NCBI GenBank assembly: GCA_001797275.1
Contig: MGOY01000036.1
Coordinates: 36,361-100,360 of the forward strand
Reading direction: 5' to 3'
Source of the DNA: Clostridiales bacterium GWF2_38_85
Lineage (GTDB): Bacteria; Bacillota; Clostridia; Oscillospirales; CAG-382
Length of the DNA stretch: 64,000 nucleotides
A model generated the notes under the pieces. It was not told the origin of the DNA and did not search any database. It was given only the letters and a program-made list of their open reading frames with translations. A program made the position numbers and the translations under genes. The stretch's first letter is position 1, and the number at the start of each line of letters is the position of its first letter. Positions 2,156-18,730 of this stretch are shown piece after piece.

Positions 2156-2184
2156 TTGACAGTGATTTCGTTATGTTGTATTAT
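2156..2184 (+). promoter_or_regulatory. sigma-A-like promoter (TTGACA-17-TATTAT)
   Basis: TTGACA at 2156-2161, a 17-nt spacer, and TATTAT at 2179-2184, upstream of the capD remnant. Confidence 0.35.
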
Positions 2185-2432: not shown

Positions 2433-2807
2433 TTAGATGGCGCAGAAAATCAAATTGAAGCCGGCGGACCTATAACTATAACTGACAAACGTATTATCCG
2501 TTACTTTATGACTATCCCTGAAGCGAGCCAGCTTGTTATGCAAGCAGGCATCATGGCACGAAGTGGTGAATTATTTGTGCTTGATATGGGAAAACCGTTA
2601 AAAATAGTAGAACTTGCTGAAAACATAATAAAACTTTCAGGACTTGTTCCCTATCAGGATATTGATATTGTTGAGATAGGGCTGAGACCAGGAGAGAAGC
2701 TTTACGAAGAACTCTTGATTAAAGATGAAAATCTAACACAAACTTTGAATAAGATGATTTTCATAGAGAAAGATACTCCCTTTACACACATGTGCAGAAA
2801 TATATGA
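2433..2807 (+). pseudogene. C-terminal remnant of a CapD/PglF/WbpM-type polysaccharide biosynthesis nucleotide-sugar 4,6-dehydratase
   Basis: The open frame from 2433 reads ..QIEAGGPITITDKRIIRYFMTIPEASQLVMQAG..LRPGEKLYEEL. That matches only the last ~120 aa of ~600-aa CapD-family proteins. The Rossmann and catalytic portions are absent. A TM-like peptide (LIFIFIGIIIATVIYTLADLFFWIY) around 2310-2400 may be the N-terminal remnant. Confidence 0.6.
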
Positions 2808-3019
2808 TAATCACCGTGCTCAACAGGTTCCAAGCCGTTATATTACGCAAGTATCTGAGAAAAAACCACCCCGAAACCTTTATGATAATAACAAACTCCA
2901 GCGAAATCATCGGCAAAGGCTTCAGGGGATTTGATCTGAATAGCAATATTGATAAGTAGTAATTATTTTATGAATACATAAAAAATCATACAGACTTAAA
3001 GAAAAACGAGGTAAAGTAT

Positions 3020-4130: not shown

Positions 4131-4131
4131 G

Positions 4132-5274: not shown

Positions 5275-5345
5275 GGTTTATTAGTGTTATGAAACAAATA
5301 TGTCAAGCGATAATATAGCAAAATTAATTTTAAGATAAACTATCA

Positions 5346-5375
5346 TCCGAAGCGTCAGCTTCGGAATTTGTTTTT
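5346..5375 (+). terminator. Rho-independent terminator after the epimerase gene
   Basis: Stem TCCGAAGC / GCTTCGGA with loop GTCA, followed by ATTTGTTTTT. Confidence 0.7.
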
Positions 5376-5588
5376 CAAAAGCAAATTAATTTTTATTTTT
5401 CTCGTTTACAATAATATTTAAGTTTCAACTACATATAATAGTAGAGAGTAATCATTTTTACATGAGCAATTAATATGGTTGCTTTTATATTTGCTAAAAT
5501 TTTTATATTTTCCTTCTGTTTTTCTACAAATTTCACATTTACATTATGGTATATTATGGTATAGCGTTTTATTAAAGGAGATTTTTCT

Positions 5589-5828
5589 ATGTCAAAGTCT
5601 GATAAAGAATTAACAATTGATATCGTTAACAGCTATCTTCAGGCATGCTCAAAAACGCCAAACACAATCCAACCTAATCAGGTTGTTGATTTTATTTCAA
5701 ATGTATATAAAACAATAAACAACCTTGACAATATCCCGATAAATATAGAAGATGTTGCCAAATTAAAAGACATGGCTCCAAAGCGTCTTGAACCACTTAT
5801 GTTCAACAAAATCTTTGTTGTTGACTAA
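5589..5828 (+). CDS. hypothetical small protein (79 aa)
   Basis: A strong AAAGGAG RBS lies 8 nt upstream of the ATG, and the frame is clean. I recognise no family. Confidence 0.55.
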   Translation: MSKSDKELTIDIVNSYLQACSKTPNTIQPNQVVDFISNVYKTINNLDNIPINIEDVAKLKDMAPKRLEPLMFNKIFVVD

Positions 5829-5831
5829 TTG

Positions 5832-6623
5832 CTATTTATAGAATCGATGTCCATACTTCTCAAATAGGAACACCCTTGTTTCAAACCATGCCATAACAGA
5901 ATAATCGCTTACATACCGAGGCGAGTAATAATACAAAGCTCCCTGGCTGTTATCGACAACAGTATTACTTAAAACTTCATTCACAGCTTGGATTGTATTT
6001 TCGTTTATTTTTATATTCGATGATGCCCAATCATAAACCGATGTAAACTGGCCCTCCTGCATTAGAACGTCAAATATCGTATTTGGGAATTGTTGATTTT
6101 TCACTCTGCTTAAAACAATGTTAACAATAATTCGCTTATGTTCGACATCAGAGCTGCCACATTCCTTCTGTACCAAAAAGCATAGCATCTCAAGCTCGGT
6201 GTTTGTATATCGTATTGTAGAATATGAATACATAACATTGTGAGTTTGCATTTCTTCTTCAAGCTCAGATATCATATCCTGAAGCTTTGAGATTTGATTT
6301 TTTAATGTGTTATTTTCATCATTTATCAATCCCTCGCGTTGTTCTTGTTCTGTAATAGTTGCGTATGCTTGTTGCAATTCTTTAGTCAAAGCTTTATTTT
6401 CGAAGGCATAAAAGCTTGTGGTGTTGTTAGCTTTATCTATTGATGATGCAGTTTCATTTTTCAATATATCAATTTGTTCGTTCAAATTTGTAATCAATGA
6501 TTCTTTTTTATAAGCAATCTCAGACAAGAATCCGATTTTATAAACACAAACCATACTACATGTTGCTAAAAGCGCAATCAGAATTATCGAAAACCATCGA
6601 TTTGATTTATTCGTAGATGTCAT
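5832..6623 (-). CDS. membrane-anchored cell-wall hydrolase, SleB/CwlJ (Hydrolase_2) family, with a coiled-coil linker
   Basis: N-terminal TM helix (WFSIILIALLATCSMVCVY), then a Q/E/L-rich coiled coil. The C-terminal part (ELEMLCFLVQKECGSSDVEHKRIIVNIVLSRVKNQQFPNTIFDVLMQEGQFTSV..ALYYYSP) is typical of the SleB catalytic domain. Confidence 0.75.
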   Translation of the reverse strand: MTSTNKSNRWFSIILIALLATCSMVCVYKIGFLSEIAYKKESLITNLNEQIDILKNETASSIDKANNTTSFYAFENKALTKELQQAYATITEQEQREGLINDENNTLKNQISKLQDMISELEEEMQTHNVMYSYSTIRYTNTELEMLCFLVQKECGSSDVEHKRIIVNIVLSRVKNQQFPNTIFDVLMQEGQFTSVYDWASSNIKINENTIQAVNEVLSNTVVDNSQGALYYYSPRYVSDYSVMAWFETRVFLFEKYGHRFYK

Positions 6624-6645
6624 AACAAACCTCTCTTTCCAGGGT

Positions 6646-6750
6646 AAATATTAAACTAACAAATGAATAAGTATATTAATGATTTTAAAAGTCCTGCAGA
6701 AAAGGCTTTAACAAAATCGCTGGTACAATTCATTTATCAGTTTAATATAG
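6646..6750. repeat. ~105-bp palindromic repeat element, diverged copy 1 of 3
   Basis: Outer arms AAACTAACAAATGAAT / ATTCATTTATCAGTTT and inner arms GATTTTAAAAGTCC / GGCTTTAACAAAATC. It ends in GTTTAATATAG, like the copies at 21915 and 53770. Confidence 0.7.
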
Positions 6751-6875
6751 TTAAAGATGACAGTATCTTATTTATAGTTTATGCTATCAAATAGATACTG
6801 TTGTTTTTTGCCTATTTCTATTATTACCTCGAAGAAAGGTAGTTTATAATGTTTGTTTTAAATCTAACAAATTCA

Positions 6876-6904
6876 TTGACACAAGGTATTATTAGATATA
6901 TAAT
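6876..6904 (+). promoter_or_regulatory. sigma-A-like promoter (TTGACA-17-TATAAT) for the GNAT gene
   Basis: TTGACA at 6876-6881, a 17-nt spacer, and TATAAT at 6899-6904. Confidence 0.5.
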
Positions 6905-7005
6905 AAGAACTCAACTATTATAGTAATATCTTATAATTCAAAAACAAGGTGATTTACAATTAAAAAGTTTGATATAAACCTAAATAAAGTTAAGGAATAT
7001 TCGCT

Positions 7006-7509
7006 TTGAAAATAATTGAGACAGAAAGATTGTATTTAAGAGAATTTCAATATAATGACAAAATTGAATTGATGAAGGTTCTGTCAGATCCTGAGTCTAT
7101 GCAATTCTATCCGCATCCTTTCAGTGAAAAGGAAGTTGAAGATTGGATTAAGTGGAATATTGAGAATTATAAGAAATACAGACATGGATTATGGGCAGTT
7201 ATACTCAAACAAGGTGATACCTTTATTGGTGATTGTGGTATAACAATGCAGAACATCTGTGATGAAATCCTACCCGAAATTGGTTTTCATATTATTAAAG
7301 AATATTGCAATAAGGGTTATGCAACAGAAGCCGCAGCTGCCTGCAAAGAGTATGCTTTTAATGTTCTGCGATATTCCAAAGTGTTCTCCTATACAACAAT
7401 ACAAAATATACCTTCACAAAAAGTTGCAAAGAAAATCGGAATGCAGCTCTTAAAACAATTCGAGAAGAATAATGAAAAATATATTGTACATGCAACAAGT
7501 AATGATTGA
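7006..7509 (+). CDS. GNAT-family N-acetyltransferase (RimJ/RimL-like)
   Basis: IETERLYLREF.. N-terminus and a ..GYATEAA..AF.. acetyl-CoA-binding region. It uses a TTG start. Confidence 0.8.
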   Translation: MKIIETERLYLREFQYNDKIELMKVLSDPESMQFYPHPFSEKEVEDWIKWNIENYKKYRHGLWAVILKQGDTFIGDCGITMQNICDEILPEIGFHIIKEYCNKGYATEAAAACKEYAFNVLRYSKVFSYTTIQNIPSQKVAKKIGMQLLKQFEKNNEKYIVHATSND

Positions 7510-7592
7510 TATAGCCTCATAAAATAGTTTTATAATTTTGCTATAGCAATTATTATAAATACGAGTTATTAATCTCTTGATATTATGTAAGT

Positions 7593-7638
7593 AAATCCTA
7601 TATTTAAATGGTTTTGACCAAGTAAATACAGGATTTTT
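7593..7638 (+). terminator. terminator-like hairpin; homologous to the hairpin at 15315-15358
   Basis: AAATCCT..ACAGGATTTTT stem plus T-run between convergent genes. It is ~80% identical to 15315-15358, including the loop TTAAATGGTTT(T/C)GACCA. Confidence 0.55.
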
Positions 7639-7656
7639 GTTTGTTGTTAGATTAAA

Positions 7657-8562
7657 TTAATTACTGAAATTAATTGTTGTTCCTTTGTTTATAAGCTCAT
7701 AAATTTCGTCGAAGGTTAAGATGTTGAAAAATGTTTCGTACTCATTAAGCGTTTCCTCATATAAAATACTTGTAAAAACGCAAAAGTCATCTTTATAAAC
7801 GTCTATATCGCATATTTGGAATAAATAATGATCTCTTCCTATAATCTTTCTGTAATTATCAGTTTGCGTATCATATATATAAACATCACCACCTCTCACA
7901 ATAGTTCCAGCATCATATTGAACTACAAATAAAAAATATCTGTTGTCAAGCCAACTCATACGAGATGGTGTATAATACTGTGGAAGATTGGGCATTAAGA
8001 GCTCTTTTGTTTTTTTGTTATCAACATCATATAAAAAGACTTGTGCATTTACTTCAAATTCAAAATTGTTTAGTATCACTTTACTTCTGTCGGGTGATAT
8101 TTTGATTGTTGAAATATAACCCAATTTAACTATGTCCACAATAGAATCGTCAGAATATTTTATGCTTAATACTTCATTTAATTCCTCTTTATGTAATGAC
8201 ATGTACACACCATCTTTAACATATATATCCGACGGAAAATGATCATATTTATATCTTTTGATTTGATATTTTAAGTCCTCAATTTGTTCTTCTAATTCAT
8301 TAATCTGATTTGATAAACTTTCTTTTTCATTTTCTGCTGTTTGCAATAAAATTTCCAGTCGGTCTATTTCTTTTTCAAGTTCATCGTTCTTTTCATTATC
8401 GAGTACAGAACTGTTGTTATCAGAATTATCTAAAGCTTCAGATGAAGCAATACCTGAGGTATCTGCACTTTCTGCTGTTGAAGTATTATCCTTCCCCGTG
8501 CATGCATATAGCCCAACAATAATAATAACAGCTGCTAATACAAGACATATAAATTTCTTCAT
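7657..8562 (-). CDS. hypothetical lipoprotein with coiled-coil and beta-rich C-terminal domain
   Basis: Signal peptide with lipobox MKKFICLVLAAVIIIVGLYAC, an acidic S/N/D-rich linker, an E/L-rich coiled coil, and a beta-strand-like C-terminal half. Confidence 0.6.
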   Translation of the reverse strand: MKKFICLVLAAVIIIVGLYACTGKDNTSTAESADTSGIASSEALDNSDNNSSVLDNEKNDELEKEIDRLEILLQTAENEKESLSNQINELEEQIEDLKYQIKRYKYDHFPSDIYVKDGVYMSLHKEELNEVLSIKYSDDSIVDIVKLGYISTIKISPDRSKVILNNFEFEVNAQVFLYDVDNKKTKELLMPNLPQYYTPSRMSWLDNRYFLFVVQYDAGTIVRGGDVYIYDTQTDNYRKIIGRDHYLFQICDIDVYKDDFCVFTSILYEETLNEYETFFNILTFDEIYELINKGTTINFSN

Positions 8563-8671
8563 AAGCTACCTCCCAATAATACTATGATGTATGCAGTATA
8601 TACCAAAGCTTGCGATATGTCAATGATAACCAAAACTACATCAACTAAATTTTGTAGGTTGATTAAAATAT

Positions 8672-9556
8672 TTACACATTCACTGCATTTGCTTGTATTT
8701 TTTCTTCTCTTGCTTCGCATTTGTGATCGGTTCGATTAACAGCTAATTGAAAGAAATCATTAAAATCATATGTACTGTTATTACAGTATTTATTCTTTTC
8801 CTTATGCTTATCGATATCAGCTTTCGCCTGTTCAGGTGTTGTTACTCCTTCAATATACCAGCGTTCAAGTACAGCGTTGATGTAGTTTATGTTATACTTT
8901 TGAATGCTATCTATGTTGATATTATAAGCTATTTCAACCATCTCGAACGGGTATTTACGTTCCTCAAACCACAGCTTCAGAATGTTATTTTCATTTTCCG
9001 AAAAGCCGCGATTGCTAATACCTGCCAGCACCCTAAATTTAGAGATAAGCTTTTGATTCGTGTCGGTAGTAAGAATATTTATTTGGTTAGGTACGGTACG
9101 GTTAGGTACGGTACGGTTACCTGCGCCGTCACACAGATTAATTTTGGATATCTTTAAAATATCATTCGGACAGTCCGACGGACTTCCGTCGGACTGTCCT
9201 TTTTCTTTTGTTGCTTTATCTCTGGACGCACGCTTTCTTTCCGCGTCGCTCTTTCTCTTGTCAATCAACTTACCGGCATAATCGTACCAATCATGTATTT
9301 TTTTATCTTCTTCAAGAAAGCCGGCTGAGATGAGAGAATTGACGAAATCATCGGGTTTTTTTCGCCAGCCTGAAACAAAGGCTAATTCCGAATTTAAGAA
9401 TTGTGACAGGTCACCATCCTGTGCGTTATCCAATGCCCATAGCCATAACATGCAAAGGTGACCGACTGCTTGCGGTGAATCAATTCGTAACAAGCTCATG
9501 AGTCTTAATATCTTTTTATTCTGAGGTAGTGTTTGATGTAATTCAATCCATGCCAT
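8672..9556 (-). CDS. phage/element-type replisome organizer (DnaD/DnaB_2 domain protein)
   Basis: The N-terminus MAWIELHQTLPQNKK..GHLCMLWLWALDNAQDGDL is typical of phage replisome organizers. The C-terminus (..INYINAVLERWYIEGVTTPEQA) is DnaD-like. An AAGGATG RBS is present. Confidence 0.7.
   Translation of the reverse strand: MAWIELHQTLPQNKKILRLMSLLRIDSPQAVGHLCMLWLWALDNAQDGDLSQFLNSELAFVSGWRKKPDDFVNSLISAGFLEEDKKIHDWYDYAGKLIDKRKSDAERKRASRDKATKEKGQSDGSPSDCPNDILKISKINLCDGAGNRTVPNRTVPNQINILTTDTNQKLISKFRVLAGISNRGFSENENNILKLWFEERKYPFEMVEIAYNINIDSIQKYNINYINAVLERWYIEGVTTPEQAKADIDKHKEKNKYCNNSTYDFNDFFQLAVNRTDHKCEAREEKIQANAVNV
9085..9121. repeat. 15-bp tandem repeat (GGTTAGGTACGGTAC x ~2.4) inside the replisome organizer gene
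   Basis: Read directly from the sequence. It encodes (NRTVP)x2 in the interdomain linker. Confidence 0.8.
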
Positions 9557-9616
9557 ATTTTCATCCTTGCTTTTAAGTAGTTTTATTGTATATCAAGCTT
9601 GTCCTCTGAAGAACTG

Positions 9617-9805
9617 TTAAATATCAGTTCTTCCTTTCGCTCTTTCGCTAAGTACAATATTCCATGCTATCTGAGTTACACGATCCCAAATTCTATCAAT
9701 CTCTTCTTTGGTTTTATCACGATAATAGGCATCCGAAACCATGATATGTGTTGGACCGATATAGTAATCTGCAACAATGTTGCCTTCTATTTTTGTGTCT
9801 TGCAT
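9617..9805 (-). CDS. hypothetical small protein (62 aa), co-oriented upstream of the replisome organizer
   Basis: An AAGGGGGT RBS lies upstream of the ATG at 9805. It sits in an operon position with 8672-9556. Confidence 0.55.
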   Translation of the reverse strand: MQDTKIEGNIVADYYIGPTHIMVSDAYYRDKTKEEIDRIWDRVTQIAWNIVLSERAKGRTDI

Positions 9806-10129
9806 ATAAACTACCCCCTTGTTACAAAGATATGAATTGCATGATTTATGTGTTCACAAATTTATTAATCAAGCTATCTTATTTTTCTAAAATATCACCG
9901 TTCCTTTTCAACACAACACAATATCACAACCTTGTTTTGTTATCCAGCTATATTTAATAAAAACCAAAACTTTATCTTTTCAGACATATATTCTGAGCTT
10001 AAATATTTGTCCCCTCACTTATATACTTTTTTGTGATGTTTTAGGAGGGTGTTTTTGATGCTTTTCAAAAAATAATAAGAGCTTATTTTTTATTGTTTTA
10101 TACCTAACGGAAATATTCACTATATTTGA

Positions 10130-10158
10130 TTGACTCAATATCATATATTTGGTATAAT
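10130..10158 (+). promoter_or_regulatory. sigma-A-like promoter (TTGACT-17-TATAAT)
   Basis: TTGACT at 10130-10135, a 17-nt spacer, and TATAAT at 10153-10158. Confidence 0.5.
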
Positions 10159-10285
10159 ACCAATATCGAAAAAATCAAATTACATTTTGATTATATTAAA
10201 CACAATTATTTAATTTATATAAATACAATATTTTAGCTTAATTTTTAGGTTAAATGAGAAAGGTGGATTTGTTATAAAAAAATCT

Positions 10286-11164
10286 TTGTATGTGATAATA
10301 TTTGCGATTATGGTATTTCTCCTTTTGCCGATAACTGTAAGTGCAGATACAGGACCGAAACCCTCAGTAAATATCACCTTTGAAAATATGGGTGATGAGT
10401 TGTGTTATTGTACACTTCTATCAAATACAGATTACTTTGGCCCATACTCTGTTTGGAACGGTGATGAAAGCAACATTACAAACTATAATTATTATAATTT
10501 GGATAAAGAAGTATGGCGAGCATTTGTTGAATACGAAGATACAGACGGATATGTTTTTTTACAAATAGGTCAGCAAGTAAACGAAACAAAAAAATTTGTT
10601 TGGGGATATTCTCCTCCGATGAGTTTTAAAATCTTATTGTACTATCCTGAAACAGAAACATTTCTTGTCAGCGGAATTTATGAGAGATATGCATTTGATA
10701 CATACTACACAGTTGATATGGATGGTGTAAAAACTGACAATGTAAATAATAATCAAATTCTACAAGCATATAAATCATATAATTATGTTAAAGAAACCAC
10801 TGCTCTTATTGCTCGTATTATAATTACGATATTGATTGAAATGGGTGTTGCTCTTCTGTTTTATTTCAGAGAGAAAAAGCAGTTAATATTTATTGCAGCT
10901 GTTAACATAGTTACACAGATCATCCTTAACGTTTTATTGAATGATATTAATTATAATTCCGGTCTATTGTTATTTACTATCAGTTATATCTTTTTTGAAA
11001 TTATAATTTTTGCACTCGAAGCAATTTTGTATTGTATCGTTATGAACAGAATCAATAAGCAACCTAAGAAATTTCGTATCTATGTTGCTTATTCATTAGT
11101 TGCTAATGCAGTATCTTTTATAACTGGATTAATCATTGCTTATATCGTACCCGGAATGTTCTAA
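10286..11164 (+). CDS. hypothetical membrane protein (secreted N-terminal domain plus ~4 C-terminal TM helices)
   Basis: Signal peptide (..LLLPITVSADTGP), a ~160-aa extracytoplasmic domain, then hydrophobic helices. It uses a TTG start after a GAAAGGTGG RBS. Confidence 0.6.
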   Translation: MYVIIFAIMVFLLLPITVSADTGPKPSVNITFENMGDELCYCTLLSNTDYFGPYSVWNGDESNITNYNYYNLDKEVWRAFVEYEDTDGYVFLQIGQQVNETKKFVWGYSPPMSFKILLYYPETETFLVSGIYERYAFDTYYTVDMDGVKTDNVNNNQILQAYKSYNYVKETTALIARIIITILIEMGVALLFYFREKKQLIFIAAVNIVTQIILNVLLNDINYNSGLLLFTISYIFFEIIIFALEAILYCIVMNRINKQPKKFRIYVAYSLVANAVSFITGLIIAYIVPGMF

Positions 11165-11665
11165 AACACTTTTTTATTCAATTTAACAACTATAACTTCT
11201 CGCTTAAAAAATACCTCCCAAATATAATGTTTCCGATCCGTCACCTATCAACTGAAATATGTTTCCGGTGTATTTTAACTTATTTTCAATATATAATTTT
11301 TATGCGACTGCACATCGAATGCATGAAAAAGCCTTGTGAATGCGTTGTTTTTGAGACAAAAATATTCTAAAAAGCTTTGATACAGCCCGCTGTTGCGGGC
11401 TGATGTTATAGGGTGGACAGCCAAACCGGCCCCACCCTTATTCCTGCTTGTAAAAAAATATGGACTGTTTCAAGCTCAAAACGCAGTTTATTTTAGATTT
11501 CGAATTTGAACAAACGGCGTAATTTTGCTCAAATTCGATTTATGCGGCTTTTTTCCTCCCTCAATAAATCAATAATAAACTGTGTTAGCAATTTGCTTGA
11601 AATTTTATTGTATAGCTTAAACATAGATGTTATAATAATAACAATATTTCAAGGAGTTCAATAGC

Positions 11666-11758
11666 GTGAAAAATATATGGATATGCAATAACCTAACCGT
11701 GTATCCCCATAAATTTTTCATGATAAATTTGTGCTGTTGCACAGAATGGGGATTATAA
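11666..11758 (+). CDS. candidate 30-codon Cys-rich upstream ORF (MKNIWICNNLTVYPHKFFMINLCCCTEWGL)
   Basis: An AAGGAG RBS lies 9 nt before the GTG at 11666. The TAA stop overlaps the ATG of the 640-aa gene (TAATG at 11756-11760). Confidence 0.3.
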   Translation: MKNIWICNNLTVYPHKFFMINLCCCTEWGL

Positions 11759-13653
11759 TGAAAAAAGTAATTATAATTACAGAAAACAAGAGTGATTTGA
11801 GTTCACTCTTACAAAATACACTCAAAGATTCATGCGATATTTTTAATATTGATGAAGCAACCGATGGTTGTTTTAATGCATATGATTCTATTATTCTTCT
11901 TGGCGGAACAAGAAGCGAAGCACTAATTTTACCAGCGAAATTGAGAAATAAAATTGAAGATCAAATCGATAAAGGTAAGAAGGTTTTTGTTGAGTATTGT
12001 CTTAGCATTTGTGATTCGTATGCAGCACAAAGCGGTGTCAGCCGTTTTTCAAGGTTATCTTATTTAGGTGATAGCTTCGAAAATCTTGAAACAAATGATA
12101 TACTTGATGATCAGTGCTGCGATTATATATCAAGCTATTTTAAATACAATGATTCATCATTTGTGCTGGTTTACAAGGATCATATTATGGCACATTATAA
12201 TGCTGAGCTTGCAGAGAATGATAAAAACAACATCTCAAAATGGGCTTTATGGTTCCTAAAAAAGAATGTGCTTGTTTGCAACTTCAGGTTATGCAACTTT
12301 ATAAAAGCACGCTTTGCACCGATAACCAAATGGCAAAGTCTTATCAAAAAAATAATCCTTTGGCTCTGTGATGAGCTTCCGAACTCAATAATATTTGATG
12401 TACCTTATACCTTCAAGCAAGTAAACACCCTTACCGGGAACGACATCTGTTCATGCGTTGAAAAAGCACTCAATTGGTATAAATCAAACGGTATTTTACT
12501 TGATAACGGTAGGTGTGGTGTGCTTGAAGGAATGCAGCATGATATTTTTGCTGATGGTAAACAGAGTATAGCAAAAACGGTCAGAGCAGATTGTTGCGGT
12601 GAGGTTTCGCTTGCTTTCTATTCACATTATCTCATAAGCAATTGCACAGAAAGCCTTGATACCTTCAAGAACCTACAGAATTATATGTATGAAAATCTAC
12701 AAATTAAAGGTGGTATCTTCGATGGCATGGTGCGTTGGAGCGAGGTAGCCTGGACTGTCTGTTATCAGGATGATGTTGCTCGCGCTATCATACCTACACT
12801 TCTTTACACCTTGTACAGCGGTGATCAAACCTACTTGCAATATGCAGAAAAAGCACTCGACTTTTTATTAAAGACAACCTCTGAGAATGGAATTCGTGCA
12901 GCAAGAACGGATAACCTTAGCATTGCTGAATCACAGAATCTTGAGAAATTCAAAAAGCAATCAAACATTATAAAGTGTGCTCATTATAACGCATATTATC
13001 ATGCAGCACTTGCATTGGCATATAAAATAAATGGCAAAGCTGAATACCTTGTTGGTGCTGTTAAAGGTCTCGAAGCGATAATGGATGTTTACCCGGATAC
13101 AATCAGAGAGCAAAGCGAAACAGAAGAAATGTGTAGACTTGTCCTGCCTCTTGCCTGGTTATACTGGGCGACCGGTGATGATAAGCATAAGGGAATGTTG
13201 TATAGAGTATGTTGCGATCTGCAAAAGGTGAAATGCTTCGGGAATGCTTACCTTGAATGGGATACCGATTATAAGGCTCACTGCAGCAGAAAACTCAACA
13301 CCGAATCCTCTTTATTGGTTTCAAACGGAGACCCTGTTGTCGATATGCTGTACTCTGTAAACTGGTTACCGCTCGGATTCTCACAAGCATATTTAATCAC
13401 AAATGATGACTATTTCAAGGAATTATGGCTTGAGATTGCTAAGTTTTTTGTGTCGACTCAGATTAACAGCGATAACAAAACAATAGACGGATGCTGGGCA
13501 AGAGCATATGATCCCAGCATAAAAGAGATTTATGGAATCCCACATGATGTAGGCTGGGGACCTTGGGCAATTGAAACAGGTTGGACAGTCGGTGAAATTA
13601 CAGCCGGACTTGGGCTCGGTATTGCAAGCGAAAAAATAAAACCTTTTATATAG
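11758..13653 (+). CDS. hypothetical 631-aa protein: flavodoxin/GATase1-like N-terminal domain plus alpha/alpha-toroid-like C-terminal domain
   Basis: N-terminus MKKVIIITENK..YDSIILLGGT..KVFVEY. The C-terminal helical repeats (AHYNAYYHAALALAYK.., LPLAWLYWATGDD, DGCWARAYDP..GWGPWAIETGW) resemble six-hairpin glycosidase or prenyl-cyclase folds. I cannot assign a family with confidence. Confidence 0.6.
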   Translation: MKKVIIITENKSDLSSLLQNTLKDSCDIFNIDEATDGCFNAYDSIILLGGTRSEALILPAKLRNKIEDQIDKGKKVFVEYCLSICDSYAAQSGVSRFSRLSYLGDSFENLETNDILDDQCCDYISSYFKYNDSSFVLVYKDHIMAHYNAELAENDKNNISKWALWFLKKNVLVCNFRLCNFIKARFAPITKWQSLIKKIILWLCDELPNSIIFDVPYTFKQVNTLTGNDICSCVEKALNWYKSNGILLDNGRCGVLEGMQHDIFADGKQSIAKTVRADCCGEVSLAFYSHYLISNCTESLDTFKNLQNYMYENLQIKGGIFDGMVRWSEVAWTVCYQDDVARAIIPTLLYTLYSGDQTYLQYAEKALDFLLKTTSENGIRAARTDNLSIAESQNLEKFKKQSNIIKCAHYNAYYHAALALAYKINGKAEYLVGAVKGLEAIMDVYPDTIREQSETEEMCRLVLPLAWLYWATGDDKHKGMLYRVCCDLQKVKCFGNAYLEWDTDYKAHCSRKLNTESSLLVSNGDPVVDMLYSVNWLPLGFSQAYLITNDDYFKELWLEIAKFFVSTQINSDNKTIDGCWARAYDPSIKEIYGIPHDVGWGPWAIETGWTVGEITAGLGLGIASEKIKPFI

Positions 13654-13660
13654 ATATTTA

Positions 13661-13689
13661 TTGTTATCATTTCAAATAAGTGTTATAAT
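13661..13689 (+). promoter_or_regulatory. extended -10 promoter for the recombinase gene (TTGTTA-17-TGTTATAAT)
   Basis: TTGTTA at 13661-13666, and TATAAT at 13684-13689 preceded by TGT. Confidence 0.45.
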
Positions 13690-13718
13690 AATTCCAAACA
13701 AATACCATGGAGAAGCAT

Positions 13719-15302
13719 ATGCAATATTGTATCTACTTAAGAAAATCAAGAGCTGATATTGATGCAGAGGCTCGTGGTGAAGGTGAAACCTTAGCACGGC
13801 ATGAGAAGTGTCTGATTGAGCTTGCCAAGAAGCTGAACCTGATAATAACAGCGATCTATAGAGAAGTCGTTTCAGGCGAAACAATTTCTGCACGCCCTGT
13901 TATGCAACAGCTCCTGAGTGAAGTAGAACAAGGAGCATGGGCGGGTGTTCTGGTTATGGAGGTTGAGCGTCTTGCGCGTGGTGATACAATTGATCAGGGT
14001 ATTGTTGCTCAAGCATTTAAATATAGCGATACAAAAATTATAACTCCATCAAAGACTTATGATCCGAATAATGAATACGATGAGGAGTATTTTGAATTTG
14101 GCTTGTTCATGAGCCGACGCGAATACAAAACTATTAATCGCCGGCTACAACGCGGACGAATGGCTTCTGTAAAAGAAGGAAAATTCTTAGGTTCGGTTGC
14201 TCCGTATGGTTATGAAAAGGTTAAAATAACAAACAATAAAGGTTACACTTTGAAAATCATGCCTGAACAGGCTGATGTGATTCGCTTTATCTTTGAGTTG
14301 TTTACAAAAGGCGAACAGCGGCCCGACGGCAGCCTAAAAAGATTAGGTGCTTCTCTTATCTGCAGACGATTAAATGATTTAAAAATACCGCCGCAGAAAC
14401 GTGATTACTGGGTTAATTCGTCCATACTTGATATATTGATCAATCCTGTCTATACCGGAAAAATCCGTTGGAACTGGAGACCGGTACAAAAGAAGGTTGT
14501 TAACGGTCAGGTCAAAAAAGTTCGCCCACGAGCTGACGAGAGCGAATGCATACTCATTGATGGTTTACATGATGCTATTATTGATGATAAGACATGGGAA
14601 ACTGCTCAACAGCTAATACAGGAAGTCAAGCAATCGCCAATTCCGAATAAATATAACATCATGAATCCTCTTGCCGGTATTGTAAAATGTGCATTATGCG
14701 GTCGAAATATGATTCGCCGTCCCCACCCTAACAATAAACCGGCAACACTCATGTGCCCTGCAACAGCTTGCTCAAATATAAGCGCGCAGCTCGATGCTAT
14801 TGAGGAAAGTTTGCTTGTTGCTTTGAAAGCATGGGTTACTGAATATAAATTAAAATGGAATGACAAAGAACAGCAACTCGAAAATAACCAGGATAAATTT
14901 TCACATGATGCGATCATTAAATTAGAAAAGGAACTCGAAAACTTAAAAATCCAGGCAACAAAAATCTATGACTTTCTTGAACAAGGTGTATATACGGTTG
15001 ATGTGTTCCAACAACGGATGAAGGAAGTAAACTCAAAAATTGAAGAAACACAAAATAGTATAGCAAAAATAAAAAATGAGCTTTCCCACTTCGAACAGCG
15101 AAGAGAAGCTCAGATAAGTATTATTCCTAAAATCGAAAATCTGCTTAATGTTTATAGAGAAACAGACGATAATAAGTACAAGAATGATCTATTGAAGGAA
15201 GTACTTAGCATGGCGCTTTATAAAAAAACAGTCAATGGTCATTATAAGAATGCAGATCCAAATGACTTCAGCTTAATACTCTACCCCAGATTACCAAAAT
15301 GA
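13719..15302 (+). CDS. large serine recombinase (SprA/SpoIVCA/TP901-class integrase)
   Basis: Resolvase catalytic domain MQYCIYLRKSRAD..VSGE..RP..VLVMEVERLARGD..DQG, a recombinase domain (..GYEK..YTGKIRWNW), a Zn-ribbon (CALCGRNM..CPATAC), and a long C-terminal coiled coil. A GGAGAAG RBS lies before the ATG at 13719. Confidence 0.9.
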   Translation: MQYCIYLRKSRADIDAEARGEGETLARHEKCLIELAKKLNLIITAIYREVVSGETISARPVMQQLLSEVEQGAWAGVLVMEVERLARGDTIDQGIVAQAFKYSDTKIITPSKTYDPNNEYDEEYFEFGLFMSRREYKTINRRLQRGRMASVKEGKFLGSVAPYGYEKVKITNNKGYTLKIMPEQADVIRFIFELFTKGEQRPDGSLKRLGASLICRRLNDLKIPPQKRDYWVNSSILDILINPVYTGKIRWNWRPVQKKVVNGQVKKVRPRADESECILIDGLHDAIIDDKTWETAQQLIQEVKQSPIPNKYNIMNPLAGIVKCALCGRNMIRRPHPNNKPATLMCPATACSNISAQLDAIEESLLVALKAWVTEYKLKWNDKEQQLENNQDKFSHDAIIKLEKELENLKIQATKIYDFLEQGVYTVDVFQQRMKEVNSKIEETQNSIAKIKNELSHFEQRREAQISIIPKIENLLNVYRETDDNKYKNDLLKEVLSMALYKKTVNGHYKNADPNDFSLILYPRLPK

Positions 15303-15314
15303 AAATTATATAAT

Positions 15315-15358
15315 AAATCCTGTTTTAAATGGTTTCGACCATCAAAAACAGGATTTTT
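15315..15358 (+). terminator. terminator hairpin after the recombinase gene; homolog of 7593-7638
   Basis: Stem AATCCTGT / ACAGGATT followed by TTTTT. It lies between convergent genes. Confidence 0.65.
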
Positions 15359-15390
15359 ATTTTGACTTTATTCCGTCTATAATTTAATAA

Positions 15391-16515
15391 TTATTTTGTT
15401 GATGTGAAAATGTATTCTGCCATCCACTGAGCCATTTCATTTAAAAATGGAAATGTGTTTGTGTCCGGTGCAGGAAGTTCTCCATATATTTTTGTATATG
15501 TGTTTTCAAAATATTTTATAGCTTTGCATTTATCAATCCATTGACTCACATCAATAAATTCTTCTTTCCACCATTCTGCTTCGTCTTTTTCAACAGAGGA
15601 TAATAAAAGGTTCATCCATTTTTTTGAGTTACTGCTCTCATGACTCTCAATAACCGATTTTGTGTAAACAGAACACCCACCATCCTTCAACACTCTATAT
15701 GCTTCACGGAATCCTTCCATCATTTTTGCTTGCATACTTTCATATCCATAGTTAGAAAACACTAAATCAATAGACTTGTCCATAATAGGTAATTTTGAAC
15801 CTTCACACGCAAGATAAATTATGTTAACATAAGGATTTTTCCATTCTGTTGAATAAAATATTCTATTTCATTTCAAAATTCTGTGGCTGATATCTACCAT
15901 AATTATAGTTACAGGCCAGTTAATCTTTTTTATCTGATGTTTGATTCCTTGTCCAGTACCGCAAGCCATATCCAATATTATTTTAGGACGATGCTTCACT
16001 ATCTCTTCCCAGATAACATCAGCTTTATTTAATCCTCTTTTATAATTTGGGTTCCCTAACCAGTGATGCTCATGTAAGTATTCATCATAATTACGATAAC
16101 TCAAAGACCATTGTTCACCGGATATTTCTCTTGTTTTGAAATCCACAACTCCATCAATAATATTGAAATAATGCTTGTTATTACATTCATAAGTAAGATT
16201 ATTTATATTATTATTAAGCTTCAGGTCATTATAACATTTTGGACACTTAAGAATCTTATTTAAAAACAGAAATTCTCTTTCTATTCCTGCAACTTCATCG
16301 ATATAATCGTCACCCTCTAAAATGTTATTTATTGAAGTCTTAAACATCCATGACATGTTCAATAAAATATCTATATCGGGCAGTGATAACCCTGTCTCCC
16401 ATTTGCTGACGGCTTGCGGACTAACATTTAATATTTCTGAGAATTCTGCTTGTGAATATCCGGCTTTTTTTCGCAGACAACTTATTATTTTAACAACTTC
16501 AACTTTGTTTATCAT
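15391..16515 (-). pseudogene. HTH(XRE)-Zn-ribbon-class I SAM methyltransferase, interrupted by one in-frame TGA
   Basis: ORFs 15868-16554 and 15391-15783 are in the same frame, separated only by the TGA at 15868-15870. Read-through gives ..ILDMACGTGQG..VDISHRILK*NRIFYSTEWKNPYVNIIYLACEGSKLPIMDKSIDLVFSNYG.., which carries methyltransferase motifs I to post-II contiguously. The N-terminal HTH is GYSQAEFSEILNVSPQAVSKWETG. CPKC..C..H forms a Trm112-like ribbon. Confidence 0.7.
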
Positions 16516-16707
16516 AGTAATTTCCTCTTTTCTTAACAAGAGTATACCATACATTAATTTATGTAAAAATGGCTTGATAGTTTCAATTCAAAGAAAAAGC
16601 TCAACCACTGGTTGTTCGTTACAGTATATTATACTACAAAACTACTGATTATCCAATAGCTTATATTATCAACACTCAGTTAATTTGTAAGCTCCATGAT
16701 TAAAATG

Positions 16708-16926
16708 TTATTGACAACCTATCGGAACGCATTCTTCGGTACCGATATCTGTTAGGACACCGATTACTTCTTTATATGGCATAACATAGCGTTGACTTAA
16801 GTAACGCAATGCTGCTCCCGATTCACCATCTGGCCCGCCATATTGCGTAATTATCAGTTTTGCGAGCGCTGGATTTGGATTTTTTATATTTACCGGATAT
16901 TGTAATTTCTTATCGTATGTCCACAT
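16708..16926 (-). pseudogene. cotJC: 5' fragment of spore coat protein CotJC (Mn-catalase family), truncated after the DIGTEE motif
   Basis: MWTYDKKLQYPVNIKNPNPALAKLIITQYGGPDGESGAALRYLSQRYVMPYKEVIGVLTDIGTEE matches the CotJC N-terminus. The expected (L/F)AH(L/W)E metal-ligand continuation is replaced by CVPIGCQ-stop. The fragment is 72 aa against the ~190 aa expected. Confidence 0.8.
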
Positions 16927-16929
16927 AAA

Positions 16930-17184
16930 TTATGCCTCCGTCTCATTCTGCCACGGCCAGGGCATATTGACCCAAGTCCAGGTATCCCCTGCAGCTTCAC
17001 CCATTGTCAATGCTCCATATCGCATTGTATATTGCTGTTTTAGTGTATCATATGCCTGTTTGTTTTTCCTGAAATACTCCAATGCCCGTTGATTATTGGA
17101 ATGAGAGTCAAGAAACATTCCTGTCTCCAAGAGTGCAAAACTCAGTGCCTGTATTGCTTTTAACATATTTTTTTGTTCATTCAT
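16930..17184 (-). CDS. cotJB: spore coat protein CotJB
   Basis: LKAIQALSFALLETGMFLDSHSNNQRALEYF..Y..L..QY..RYGAL pattern, the right size (84 aa), and a position between cotJA and cotJC. Confidence 0.8.
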   Translation of the reverse strand: MNEQKNMLKAIQALSFALLETGMFLDSHSNNQRALEYFRKNKQAYDTLKQQYTMRYGALTMGEAAGDTWTWVNMPWPWQNETEA

Positions 17185-17411
17185 TTTCTTACCCTTCCTG
17201 CCAGAAATGGTTTATCAAGTTCGGGGAACAATGTTCCCTTCTCTAATGCTTTTTCAAGTTCATACATATCGTCGCTCCACATCTGAAAAGGCACATACGC
17301 CATAGCAAGTGCGATATTTTTCGGCATTATTTCCAGCTCATACGGCGGCATAATCTCAGAAAGTTTTGGAATCCGCAATATTGCGTCTTCACTTTTCTCT
17401 ATTTCGCTCAT
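17181..17411 (-). CDS. cotJA: spore coat-associated protein CotJA
   Basis: LAMAYVPFQMW..YELEKALEKGTLFPELDKPF is the CotJA signature. An AAGGAGA RBS precedes the ATG at 17411, so the track start at 17570 is probably too long. Confidence 0.75.
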   Translation of the reverse strand: MSEIEKSEDAILRIPKLSEIMPPYELEIMPKNIALAMAYVPFQMWSDDMYELEKALEKGTLFPELDKPFLAGRVRK

Positions 17412-18721: not shown

Positions 18722-18730
18722 TGAAGTACC

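What the first reader, a model, noticed from the sequence alone, without database searches (positions are those of the whole stretch)
13707..17411. Spore-coat gene cotJC is cut after the DIGTEE motif by DNA carrying a SprA/SpoIVCA-class large serine recombinase: a candidate sporulation-gene intervening element
Seen in sequence:
- cotJA (17411-17181), cotJB and a 72-aa cotJC' lie in operon order on the minus strand.
- cotJC' matches the Mn-catalase-type CotJC N-terminus up to ..LTDIGTEE. It then reads 7 unrelated residues and a stop (junction ~16725-16735), where the metal-ligand (L/F)AHxE helix and ~120 more residues should follow.
- Just beyond the break lie AT-rich accessory DNA, an HTH-methyltransferase pseudogene and, 1.4 kb away, a 527-aa large serine recombinase with the YLRKSRAD catalytic motif, a Zn-ribbon and a coiled coil.

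Established knowledge: mother-cell sporulation genes in Bacillus and Clostridia (sigK/skin, spsM/SPbeta, gerE, spoVFB, spoVR) are split by elements. Exactly this recombinase class excises those elements during sporulation and restores the gene.

Inference:
- This is such an element sitting in cotJC, a target I do not recall being described.
- The 3' half of cotJC is not on the minus strand anywhere in 1-16707. So the element is larger than 16.7 kb and runs off the window, or the gene is simply dead.
- No obvious SprB-like directionality factor is recognisable. Small ORFs 9617-9805 and 5589-5828 are candidates.
Basis: partly seen in the sequence, partly recalled or inferred. Interest (0 to 1): 0.8.

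Follow-up and report, generated by a model that had tools for sequence, protein, structure and literature searches.

The report
48-kb recombinase element splitting cotJC
A spore-coat gene (cotJC) of an uncultured groundwater Clostridium is cut in two by a 48-kb mobile island that carries its own serine recombinase and intact recombination sites, so that precise excision would rebuild the gene, the same design as the classic skin element in sigK but at a target that has only been mentioned in passing before.

Summary
cotJA, cotJB and a 72-aa cotJC 5' fragment lie on the minus strand. The fragment leaves the CotJC sequence right after DIGTEE. An intact 527-aa large serine recombinase (LSR) lies 1.4 kb inside the break.

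I found the missing 3' half by walking along the source contig (DOAL01000016.1, "Clostridiales bacterium GWF2_38_85"). It lies 48,354 bp away, on the same strand.

- The two junctions rebuild a textbook LSR attP: 16 of 19 bases in inverted repeat around a GA core.
- Joining the flanks at GA gives an uninterrupted 198-aa CotJC. It aligns without gaps to intact orthologues.
- The island has 32% GC against 40% in the flank. It is a decayed prophage (integrase, DnaD-like initiator, endolysin-like gene) carrying about 30 kb of polysaccharide-synthesis genes, IS debris and several pseudogenes.
- Related LSRs (39-58% identical) sit next to cotJC fragments, or cotJC-like attP cores, in many phages and species.
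- About 19% of 80 sampled species representatives have cotJC split at this site.
- The small ORF at 9617-9805 co-occurs with this LSR clade in 43 of 48 loci. It is the best candidate for a directionality factor.

Mother-cell-specific excision is inferred, not shown. cotJC as a target is already mentioned in the literature. Verdict: a new member of a known kind.

The parts
17181..17411 (-). cotJA, first gene of the cotJABC operon. The ORF is open up to 17570; the true start is uncertain.
   Evidence: Pfam CotJA E 2e-19. Gene callers give 48 or 129 aa. An RBS lies before the ATG at 17411.
16930..17184 (-). cotJB
   Evidence: Pfam CotJB E 3e-25, profile positions 2-76 of 76.
16733..16926 (-). cotJC 5' half, codons 1-64 plus the GA of codon 65. 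As it stands, the ORF reads on into the element to a stop at 16708, giving 72 aa.
   Evidence: Pfam Mn_catalase positions 1-67 of 284. Sequence. The joined ORF is shown.
16709..16758 (-). attL: the cotJC B arm, the GA crossover (16733-16734), and the element's P' arm ATGCGTTCCGATAGGTTGT.
   Evidence: The P' arm is the inverted copy (16 of 19 bases) of the P arm at attR. A related P' arm lies next to the 48%-identical LSR in L010.
1..16732 (.). The part of the 48,354-bp element that lies in the window. The rest is 31,621 bp beyond the left edge. attR and the cotJC 3' half are at L226 15269-15682, which is DOAL01000016.1 156,788-157,201.
   Evidence: Contig walk, junctions, assembly with zero mismatches in the overlaps, and GC of 32% against 40%.
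15391..16554 (-). HTH_3-SAM-methyltransferase gene broken by a frameshift (pseudogene). It is cargo lying between the integrase and attL.
13719..15302 (+). Intact large serine recombinase (integrase), 527 aa. It converges on the cotJC 5' half.
   Evidence: Pfam Resolvase, Recombinase and Zn_ribbon_recom. PHROG 95 integrase, E 6e-94. SprA in the PDB, E 2e-43, residues 6-503. It is 39-58% identical to LSRs flanked by cotJC fragments.
13661..13689 (+). Sigma-A-like promoter match upstream of the LSR: TTGTTA, 17 nt, TATAAT, with a TG extension.
   Evidence: It is one of the three best matches, but the total count of matches in the region is not above chance.
9617..9805 (-). 62-aa ORF, a candidate recombination directionality factor (LSR-associated small protein).
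   Evidence: Family members are found in 43 of 48 loci whose LSR is at least 39% identical, always on the strand opposite the LSR. They are found in 0 of 7 loci with distant LSRs. Members also occur in phages phiIBB_Pl23 and Dorea DO134P1. No Pfam, PHROG or PDB match.
8672..9556 (-). Phage-type DnaD-like replication initiation protein (prophage remnant).
   Evidence: Pfam DnaB_2. PHROG 9474, E 7e-38.
5832..6623 (-). Cell-wall hydrolase (SleB/Hydrolase_2 type), endolysin-like; a possible prophage remnant.
   Evidence: Pfam Hydrolase_2. PHROG 14642 endolysin, E 7e-15.
2454..2807 (+). Orphan 3' fragment of a CapD-type (Polysacc_synt_2) gene. It duplicates the 3' end of the frameshifted capD that lies 22 kb further into the element.
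801..1811 (+). UDP-glucose-4-epimerase-like gene. It is the start of the roughly 30-kb polysaccharide-synthesis cargo that continues off the window.

Best explanation
**What it is.** A 48,354-bp integrated element sits inside codon 65 of the spore-coat gene cotJC. It is bounded by the attL and attR sites of a large serine recombinase.

**What it contains.** The element is a decayed temperate phage that has become a cargo island.
- It keeps the integrase (13719-15302), a small integrase-associated ORF (9617-9805), a DnaD-like initiator and an endolysin-like gene.
- It has lost its repressor, packaging, head and tail genes.
- It carries about 30 kb of polysaccharide-synthesis genes, IS remnants and several pseudogenes.

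**How it works.** The integrase alone would catalyse attP x attB integration at the GA in GGTACCGAA-GA-G. With a directionality factor, most likely the 62-aa ORF, it would recombine attL x attR. That would release a 48-kb circle and restore an in-frame 198-aa cotJC downstream of cotJA and cotJB.

**What is shown and what is inferred.**
- Shown: the anatomy, both gene halves, the att symmetry, the precise reconstitution in silico, and the clade-wide link between this integrase family and the cotJC site.
[quoted passage not shown] The spore genome would keep the element while the mother cell makes full-length CotJC.
- Also inferred: timing is set by expression of the small factor rather than of the integrase, which has a sigma-A-like promoter.
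For: - **Both halves are present.** The 5' and 3' halves are on one strand, 48,354 bp apart, and carry no stop or frameshift.
- **The att sites fit.** The rebuilt attP is ACAACCTAATGGAACGCAG-GA-ATGCGTTCCGATAGGTTGT, with 16 of 19 bases in inverted repeat. The rebuilt attB encodes DIGTEELAHM and is collinear with the natural attB of an 89-90% identical intact orthologue.
- **The joined protein is complete.** It covers Mn_catalase positions 1-194 (E 5e-52). It aligns gaplessly with seven intact CotJCs and keeps all invariant residues.
- **The integrase is intact while neighbours decay.** Neighbouring cargo is pseudogenised: the methyltransferase and capD are frameshifted, and there are capD, DUF2179, FMN_bind and IS fragments. 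That pattern fits selection on the recombination unit.
- **Relatives of the integrase use the same site.**
  - They lie directly beside cotJC fragments broken at the same codon in L010/L011, L015, L016, L018, L021, L065, L072, L115, L126 and L148.
  - They lie beside attP sites holding the cotJC core in L013, L014 and phage phiIBB_Pl23.
- **Small complete elements that are mostly recombinase exist.** L148 is 6.4 kb, L015 is 9 kb, and L088 and L132 are 3.6-4.7 kb. This is the expected end state of a domesticated excision unit.
- **ORF62 co-occurs with the integrase clade**.
- **The integrase is homologous to SprA and to the integrase of the sigK element PhiS63**.
Against: - No data on excision, timing or expression exist for this uncultured organism.
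- No sigma-E or sigma-K promoter could be called with confidence upstream of ORF62 or the integrase.
- ORF62 has no similarity to any known directionality factor or any solved structure. In intact phages it sits in the early lytic operon, so it could have another early function.
- CotJC is dispensable for spore formation in B. subtilis under laboratory conditions (stated in PMC12122855). A permanently broken gene might therefore be tolerated.
- No fully identical intact allele, which would mark an empty or excised site, is in the protein database.
- The island's very large non-phage cargo is unusual for the described sporulation intervening elements.
Confidence: 0.6

Rival explanations
1. Dead-end insertion. 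The element integrated by the same recombinase chemistry but can no longer excise, because the directionality factor is lost or never expressed. cotJC is then permanently inactivated, which the cell tolerates because CotJC is dispensable or a paralogue substitutes for it.
For: - The element has lost its repressor/Cro, packaging and structural genes and holds many pseudogenes and IS remnants.
- No recognised directionality factor is present.
- CotJC loss gives no apparent defect in B. subtilis (PMC12122855).
- Clostridia often carry several CotJC-family paralogues (PMC11222575).
Against: - Both cotJC halves, the 527-aa integrase and both att arms are free of any disabling change, while neighbouring genes decayed.
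- The clade-specific small ORF is retained with an RBS.
- Across species, minimal elements keep the recombinase inside cotJC. That is hard to explain without selection for excision.
Confidence: 0.25
2. An ordinary mobile genomic island or defective prophage that merely uses cotJC as a convenient conserved attB. It excises, if at all, in vegetative cells on stress or for transfer, with no developmental role. Gene restoration would then be a by-product.
For: - Intact temperate phages with related integrases use the same site (L009-L011, IMG/VR contigs of 28-60 kb, phiIBB_Pl23).
- The integrase has a sigma-A-like promoter.
- In intact phages the ORF62 family sits in the early lytic operon behind the Cro-like gene.
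- Some relatives appear to supply a replacement cotJC 5' end instead of relying on excision (L073, L092).
Against: - This element has no repressor/Cro, replication-competent module, packaging genes or conjugation genes that would make vegetative excision useful.
- Repeated targeting of mother-cell-expressed genes by LSR elements is the established hallmark of developmental excision (Abe 2014, PMC4191935; Suzuki 2019, PMC6957869).
Confidence: 0.12
3. Assembly artefact: a chimeric metagenomic contig joins unrelated DNA to a cotJC fragment.
For: The source is a metagenome-assembled genome, and the island's GC content and gene content differ from the flank.
Against: - The same junctions occur in several independent assemblies (NCBI, two ENA, Logan).
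- The two ends carry mutually inverted att arms and complementary gene halves that join in frame. A chimera would not produce that.
Confidence: 0.02

Closest known systems
skin element in sigK of Bacillus subtilis (SpoIVCA integrase, Skr directionality factor)
   Same: It is a defective prophage of about 48 kb that splits a mother-cell sporulation gene. It carries its own large serine recombinase next to one att site. Precise excision restores the ORF. The element has lost its phage morphogenesis functions.
   Different: - The target is the coat gene cotJC, not a sigma factor, so excision is unlikely to gate the sporulation programme.
- The skin factor skr overlaps the 5' end of spoIVCA (PMC6957869). 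No such overlapping ORF exists here.
- The candidate factor here lies 3.9 kb away on the other strand.
- The cargo here is mostly polysaccharide-synthesis genes.
SPbeta prophage in spsM (SprA integrase with SprB)
   Same: The integrase is a full-length homologue of SprA (PDB 9dxh, E 2e-43). The proposed logic is the same: a constitutively expressible integrase, with timing set by a small directionality factor.
   Different: SPbeta is an active 134-kb phage, whereas this element has no packaging or structural genes. ORF62 shows no sequence similarity to SprB.
Clostridium perfringens phage PhiS63 and C. tetani prophages (sigK-intervening elements)
   Same: Their integrases are 39-40% identical to this one over the full length. 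They are clostridial hosts with a sporulation-gene target.
   Different: They use a different attB (sigK). No member of the ORF62 family was detected in PhiS63.
Paenibacillus larvae phage phiIBB_Pl23 (Fernvirus) and uncultured IMG/VR phages with 50-58% identical integrases
   Same: - These are the closest named and unnamed integrases (51-58% identical).
- The attP next to int contains the cotJC core GGTAC(A/C)GAAGA(A/G).
- They carry an ORF62-family gene in the early operon.
   Different: These are complete temperate phages. Integration into cotJC is inferred from attP for phiIBB_Pl23 and not documented in the papers I could search.
Earlier notes of cotJC interruption (Abe et al. 2013, as cited by Kohm and Hertel; Laceyella sacchari in Galperin et al. 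2022)
   Same: The same gene is reported as interrupted by phage-like or skin-like elements.
   Different: These are passing mentions. The texts I could read give no att sites, recombinase clade, directionality factor or excision data.
gin element in gerE (B. cereus) and yin element in yabG (C. botulinum)
   Same: They are small non-phage or prophage-like elements with an LSR and a small directionality factor inside mother-cell genes. They parallel the 3.6-9 kb cotJC elements seen in relatives.
   Different: They use different targets and recombinase lineages, and excision was shown experimentally there.

Membership tests
Large serine recombinase (serine integrase) | N-terminal resolvase catalytic domain with the serine nucleophile motif | tested here: met
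   Pfam Resolvase PF00239, E 8e-13, residues 9-159. Motif YLRKSRAD is at residues 6-13 of the 527-aa form.
Large serine recombinase (serine integrase) | C-terminal recombinase domain plus zinc-ribbon domain with an inserted coiled coil | tested here: met
   Pfam PF07508 (E 6e-17) and PF13408 (E 3.5e-6). The protein aligns to SprA at residues 6-503 against 18-512. The coiled coil is inferred from this alignment and from a weak SbcC-like coiled-coil hit at 355-497.
Large serine recombinase (serine integrase) | att sites of about 40-50 bp with imperfect inverted half-sites around a 2-bp crossover. attL and attR are hybrids of attB and attP. | tested here: met
   The rebuilt attP has 16 of 19 bases in inverted repeat around GA. 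The rebuilt attB is collinear with the natural attB of L230.
Large serine recombinase (serine integrase) | Catalytic activity on these sites | not testable with these tools
   Needs an in-vitro or in-vivo recombination assay.
Sporulation-gene intervening element (skin / SPbeta / vfbin / vrin / gin type) | [quoted passage not shown] | tested here: met
   The break is inside cotJC, downstream of cotJA and cotJB. Mother-cell (sigma-E) expression of cotJ is established knowledge from B. subtilis and was not tested in this organism.
Sporulation-gene intervening element (skin / SPbeta / vfbin / vrin / gin type) | Both gene halves are present in direct orientation on one replicon, and precise excision restores an intact ORF | tested here: met
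Sporulation-gene intervening element (skin / SPbeta / vfbin / vrin / gin type) | The element encodes its own site-specific recombinase | tested here: met
Sporulation-gene intervening element (skin / SPbeta / vfbin / vrin / gin type) | The element encodes a cognate recombination directionality factor | tested here: inconclusive
   ORF62 co-occurs with the LSR clade in 43 of 48 loci, against 0 of 7 loci with distant LSRs. It has no homology to known factors and no functional test.
Sporulation-gene intervening element (skin / SPbeta / vfbin / vrin / gin type) | [quoted passage not shown] | not testable with these tools
   The organism is uncultured. Promoter inspection gave nothing decisive.
Functional temperate prophage | Terminase, portal, capsid, tail and lysis modules, and a repressor/Cro switch | tested here: not met
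   Pfam lists for all called genes across the 48 kb, plus PHROG scans of the unannotated ones, show only an integrase, a DnaD-like initiator, an endolysin-like hydrolase and transposase remnants.
CotJC / Mn-catalase family (the reconstituted product) | Full-length domain with the conserved metal-ligand motifs (E35, TEE-x-x-H-x-E, AAEQKAR, REIVH) | tested here: met
   Pfam positions 1-194, E 5e-52. All columns invariant among seven intact orthologues are kept.

The most novel reading that the evidence does not exclude
cotJC may be one of the commonest landing pads for developmentally excised elements in Clostridia.
- It has two separate hot spots, at DIGTEE and at about residue 30. Several unrelated serine-recombinase lineages use them, in both orientations.
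- The 62-aa ORF family would be a new, clade-specific directionality factor.
- In this genome the system would have been domesticated into a 48-kb island. Its mother-cell excision would both restore CotJC and remove a 30-kb surface-polysaccharide locus from the mother-cell chromosome.
Probability: 0.3. Interest if true: 0.7.

Novelty: new member of a known kind. Interest (0 to 1): 0.5.

Why it matters
- **A new, fully defined example.** It adds a clostridial example (both halves, att sites, integrase, candidate directionality factor) to the small set of sporulation genes rebuilt by DNA excision. The target has so far only been noted in passing.
- **It appears to be common.** About one in five of the 80 sampled species representatives, mostly Oscillospiraceae and Ruminococcus, have cotJC split at the same codon. 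Another tenth or so are split at a second site. Spore-coat maturation in many gut and environmental Clostridia may therefore depend on recombinase activity.
- **A possible tool.** The integrase clade, its roughly 40-bp attB/attP pair and the co-inherited small ORF form a ready-made candidate integrase/directionality-factor pair for genome engineering.
- **A testable model.** The system could show how phages turn into host-retained excision units.

Tried and rejected
- **3' half inside the window or the first 10-kb extension.** Nothing found in any frame.
- **Inverted copy of the P' arm in the window, to locate attR.** Only the query itself matched. Repeat scans gave no end-like repeat.
- **A 20-nt, 95% inverted match (8914-8933 against 16655-16674).** It remains unexplained and is probably chance.
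- **Direct contig look-up of a protein from a fetched locus.** I got round this with exact cluster look-ups that return usable ids.
- **Scan of genome contigs with a chimeric bait (96 aa of a neighbouring glycosyltransferase plus three CotJC C-halves).**
  - It did not return this genome, because the short bait ranked below the 80 kept hits. That was my design flaw.
  - I re-used the 80 loci as a species survey.
- **Scan of metagenome contigs with the 96-aa bait.** It found only distant relatives.
- **The 'all 120 best hits are fragments' result.** I do not use it as a prevalence estimate.
  - P0125 is an intact protein with the same N-terminus as P0002 and was not listed, so that search favours short targets.
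  - It shows only that more than 100 distinct broken N-fragments exist, falling into at least four recurrent junction-tail families.
- **ORF62 against Pfam, PHROGs, PDB sequences and phage genomes.** No hits.
It has no homologue in any related element.
- **Promoters.** Sigma-70-like matches are not more frequent than in shuffled sequence. Eye inspection for sigma-E/sigma-K motifs upstream of ORF62 and cotJA was inconclusive.
- **The weak PHROG 'RDF' hit of the 301-aa lipoprotein (7657-8562, E 2e-4).** I rejected it as a low-complexity or coiled-coil match.
- **Possible inversion linking the orphan capD fragment (2454-2807) to the capD gene 22 kb away.** Rejected, because that capD is complete to its C-terminus and the fragment is a diverged duplicate.

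Full report
**1. Observation**

- On the minus strand the window holds an operon-like row:
  - cotJA: ORF 17181-17570, CotJA domain at its C-terminus.
  - cotJB: 16930-17184.
  - A 72-aa ORF, 16708-16926, which matches only the first 67 of 284 positions of the Mn_catalase profile.
- The 72-aa protein follows CotJC up to ...LTDIGTEE, then reads CVPIGCQ and stops.
- Inside the break lie two features:
  - a frameshifted HTH-methyltransferase gene (15391-16554);
  - an intact large serine recombinase (LSR). Its ORF opens at 13707, the real start is very likely 13719, and it is 527 aa with Resolvase, Recombinase and Zn-ribbon domains.
- No 3' half of cotJC exists in any frame of the window.

**2. 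Where the window comes from, and the missing half**

- The 72-aa protein identifies the window as bases 61,177-125,176 (reversed) of contig DOAL01000016.1 of GCA_003504315.1. The same contig was assembled independently in ENA.
- The organism is named 'Clostridiales bacterium GWF2_38_85' in the records.
- I walked leftwards from the window in three 10-kb steps. The region beyond the left edge contains:
  - a long polysaccharide-synthesis cluster, with glycosyltransferases, a Wzy-like polymerase, a flippase, a pyruvyl transferase, an aminotransferase and RmlA/RmlB;
  - a frameshifted capD;
  - a patch of IS remnants (ISL3, IS66, IS21/Mu);
  - a TnpB-like transposase and an AAA_14/DUF4143 ATPase.
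- After these, at L226 15290-15682, comes a 130-aa Mn_catalase fragment on the same strand as cotJABC'.
- tblastn shows this is the CotJC C-terminal part, starting exactly at ELAHMEM.

**3. The junctions**

In cotJC orientation the two junctions read:
- attL: ...GATATCGGTACCGAAGA|ATGCGTTCCGATAGGTTGTCAATAAC
- attR...ACAACCTAATGGAACGCAGGA|GCTTGCACATATGGAAATG

Swapping partners at the shared GA gives two products:
- An attP, ACAACCTAATGGAACGCAG-GA-ATGCGTTCCGATAGGTTGT. Its arms are 16 of 19 inverted repeats, the signature of a serine-integrase site.
- An attB, GAT ATC GGT ACC GAA GAG CTT GCA CAT ATG, which encodes DIGTEELAHM.

Other facts about the element and the rebuilt gene:
- The element is 48,354 bp, with 32.0% GC against 40.2% in the 47 kb on the other side. 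That side holds carAB, arg, his, ispE and addAB, which is core chromosome.
- The joined ORF is 198 aa. It covers Mn_catalase positions 1-194 (E 5e-52, against 9e-19 for the fragment). It aligns without a gap to seven intact CotJCs (70-78% identity) and keeps every invariant column.
- The nearest intact orthologues are 89-90% identical (P0125-P0128). They lie in a normal cotJABC operon whose DNA at this spot, GATGTAGGCACAGAAGAGCTCGCTCACATGGAG, is collinear with the predicted attB.
- A crossover further upstream, in the shared GG.AC, would produce TQE instead of the conserved TEE. In relative L015 it would produce a stop codon. So GA is the most likely core. This is inference.

**4. What the element is**

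- Phage-derived pieces remain:
  - the integrase (PHROG 95, E 6e-94);
  - a DnaD-like replication initiator (PHROG 9474, E 7e-38);
  - an endolysin-like hydrolase;
  - the 62-aa ORF.
- There is no repressor/Cro, terminase, portal, capsid or tail gene anywhere in the 48 kb.
- Several cargo genes are broken: the methyltransferase, capD, an orphan capD 3' duplicate at 2454-2807, DUF2179, FMN_bind and GHMP fragments, and IS debris.
- By contrast the integrase, both att arms and both cotJC halves are intact.
- This contrast is the usual argument that the recombination unit is under selection. It is an argument, not a measurement.

**5. The integrase clade and its target**

- Sixty-one IMG/VR loci encode relatives that are 41-58% identical. 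Most sit at the end of 28-60 kb phage contigs.
- Wherever enough flank is present among the closer relatives, the DNA just past the integrase gene takes one of three forms:
  - a cotJC 3' half starting at the same codon (L015, L018, L021, L065, L072; L017 and L020 by sequence);
  - the reverse complement of a cotJC 5' half (L016), as in the window;
  - an unoccupied attP holding the cotJC core (L013, L014).
- A prophage with CI/Cro genes and a 48%-identical integrase abuts cotJC' with nearly the same P' arm as the window (L010/L011).
- In GTDB representatives, integrases 39-56% identical abut cotJC 3' halves in L115, L126 and L148. L148 is a complete 6.4-kb element with both halves.
- Among named phages:
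  - The closest integrase is that of Paenibacillus larvae phage phiIBB_Pl23 (51%). The sequence after its int gene contains the reverse complement of GGTACAGAAGAG.
  - Dorea phage DO134P1 follows at 44% and THSA-485A at 40.5%.
  - The sigK-intervening phage PhiS63 is at 39.6% and C. tetani prophages are at 39%.
- The only solved homologue is SprA of SPbeta (E 2e-43).
- Both insertion orientations occur among close relatives. Because attP is almost palindromic, only the central GA/TC decides polarity (inference).

**6. How common the split is**

- A scan of species-representative genomes, selected only on similarity to CotJC C-halves, returned 80 loci:
  - 56 have an intact gene;
  - about 15 have the C-half starting at or just before the DIGTEE codons with no adjoining N-half;
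  - about 9 are broken at a second site near residue 25-34.
- The sample is dominated by Oscillospiraceae and Ruminococcus, so these fractions are indicative only.
- Complete small elements with both halves in view are:
  - L148, 6.4 kb;
  - L015, 9 kb;
  - L005-L008, 9.3 kb, with no recombinase gene;
  - L088, 4.7 kb, at the second site;
  - L132, 3.6 kb, at the second site.
- The protein search with the 72-aa fragment listed 120 short proteins. Of these, 109 leave CotJC within a few residues of DIGTEE, with at least four recurrent tail families.
- That search favours short targets, so it proves multiplicity, not frequency (see 'Tried and rejected').

**7. Candidate directionality factor**

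- Of all ORFs in the 48-kb element, only the integrase and the 62-aa ORF at 9617-9805 have homologues in the related elements.
- A profile built from those homologues finds a family member in 43 of 48 loci whose integrase is at least 39% identical and that have at least 8.5 kb of upstream sequence. The member is always on the opposite strand, 0.1-7.6 kb upstream of the integrase. It is found in none of 7 loci with distant LSRs.
- The family is also present in phiIBB_Pl23 (gp33, second gene of the early operon) and in Dorea phage DO134P1. It is borderline in THSA-485A and absent from PhiS63.
- It is retained in the decayed 9-kb element of L015 and in the recombinase-less element of L005-L008.
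- It has no match in Pfam, PHROGs or the PDB.
- Clade-specific co-inheritance with the integrase is what one expects of a directionality factor. An unrelated early-gene function is not excluded. I rate the assignment at about 0.5.

**8. Mechanism and regulation**

- Shown: the structure and the in-silico outcome of attL x attR recombination.
- Established knowledge: serine integrases need only themselves for attP x attB, and need a directionality factor for attL x attR. In skin, SPbeta, vfbin, vrin and gin this reaction runs in the mother cell and rebuilds the gene (PMC4191935, PMC6957869, PMC5595907).
- Inferred: the same happens here.
- The integrase has one of the best sigma-A-type promoter matches in the region (TTGTTA, 17 nt, TATAAT, with a TG extension). 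If real, this resembles SPbeta, where the integrase is expressed constitutively and the small factor sets the timing.
- Upstream of ORF62 I see only a loose AC-N17-CATAnnnT motif, which I do not regard as evidence.

**9. Comparison with what is known, and novelty**

- The kind of system is well known.
- The target has been mentioned twice:
  - Kohm and Hertel, citing Abe et al. [quoted passage not shown]
  - Galperin et al. note a skin-like element in cotJC of Laceyella sacchari.
- In the searchable literature I found no description of att sites, integrase clade, directionality factor or excision for cotJC. The original Abe 2013 paper could not be read.
- I therefore file this as a new member of a known kind. 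Three findings may be worth a specialist's time:
  - the breadth of cotJC targeting;
  - the ORF62 family;
  - the unusual polysaccharide-island cargo.

**10. Verdict**

- The element is complete and apparently excision-competent.
- Developmental excision is plausible but untested, and I put it at about 0.6.
- Interest is moderate, at 0.5.

Noticed in passing
L081, L084, L088, L089, L107, L109, L132, L137 (GTDB loci); L015 951-2565: There is a second insertion hot spot in cotJC near residues 25-34 (around QYGGPDGE). It is used by unrelated serine recombinases (about 22-24% identical to the window's). Complete elements of 3.6 kb (L132, Sinanaerobacter chloroacetimidivorans BAD-6) and 4.7 kb (L088) are little more than the recombinase.
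   Followed up: partly
L015 (IMGVR_UViG_2593339269_000002) 951-11950: One cotJC gene is broken at least three times. A 487-aa recombinase abuts the fragment that starts at residue 29. A 9-kb element with a 56%-identical LSR sits at DIGTEE. The 3' half breaks off again at about residue 136.
   Followed up: partly
L005-L008 10195-19500: A 9.3-kb element sits at the DIGTEE site with inverted att arms (18 of 24) but no recombinase gene. Its cargo is Ku, a LigD-type ligase, a copper ATPase and CsoR. It keeps an ORF62-family gene right beside attR. If it still excises, the integrase must act in trans.
   Followed up: partly
L073 8391-10453 (Ruminococcus callidus MSK.21.81); L092 8146-10405: A related LSR (42-45% identical) lies directly upstream of an apparently full-length cotJC. 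That gene has an atypical N-terminal third and no cotJB in front of it. The 3' two-thirds in L073 are identical to the host half next to a prophage in L065. The phage may supply a replacement 5' end instead of relying on excision.
   Followed up: partly
L013, L014, L015-L020 against window, L010, L016: Close relatives of the integrase insert in either orientation relative to cotJC. The attP is nearly palindromic and only the central GA/TC differs, so polarity seems to have flipped during evolution.
   Followed up: partly
L004 (GCA_028705495.1, JAQWDK010000005.1), contig end: In the closest relative with a broken gene (N-half 89% identical), the contig ends exactly after ...GTEE. This is as expected if the assembly graph branches at the att site, because of mixed occupied and empty alleles or a repeated element. 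Sister contigs L230/L231 with the same upstream genes carry the intact gene.
   Followed up: partly
window 2454-2959, and L222 11836-13609: An orphan 3' fragment of a CapD-type gene, followed by a DUF2179 fragment, lies in the window. The fragment is a diverged duplicate of the 3' end of a frameshifted full-length capD 22 kb deeper in the element. This points to internal duplication and decay within the island.
   Followed up: yes
window 11604-11644 and 13657-13697: Two 41-nt stretches, 71% alike, each carry a TGnTATAAT-type promoter match. One lies in front of the unknown 640-aa gene (11731-13653) and one in front of the integrase. The two genes may share regulation. The 640-aa protein has no Pfam or PHROG match.
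   Followed up: no
window 8914-8933 and 16655-16674: A 20-nt inverted repeat (19 of 20 bases) links the inside of the DnaD-like gene to a spot about 60 nt inside attL. It is unexplained and possibly chance in AT-rich DNA.
   Followed up: no
L226 10001-11512 (beyond the left edge of the window): A 503-aa TnpB/OrfB-like transposase (PHROG 506, E 9e-37) is inserted between two epimerase genes of the polysaccharide cargo. Beside it lies a patch of ISL3, IS66 and IS21/Mu fragments.
   Followed up: no
L229 4570-4640 (Paenibacillus phage phiIBB_Pl23): The attP-like sequence after the integrase gene of this isolated honeybee-pathogen phage contains the cotJC core (reverse complement of GGTACAGAAGAG) between inverted ATGGT.CA.A arms. 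This predicts that the phage integrates into cotJC of P. larvae. I found no paper stating this.
   Followed up: partly
window 17660-20812: Directly upstream of the cotJ operon lies a two-component pair: a PAS histidine kinase with a 5TM-LYT sensor domain, and a response regulator with an HD-GYP-type (HD_5) output. The whole stretch 1-22 kb, not only the element, has lower GC than the rest of the window.
   Followed up: no
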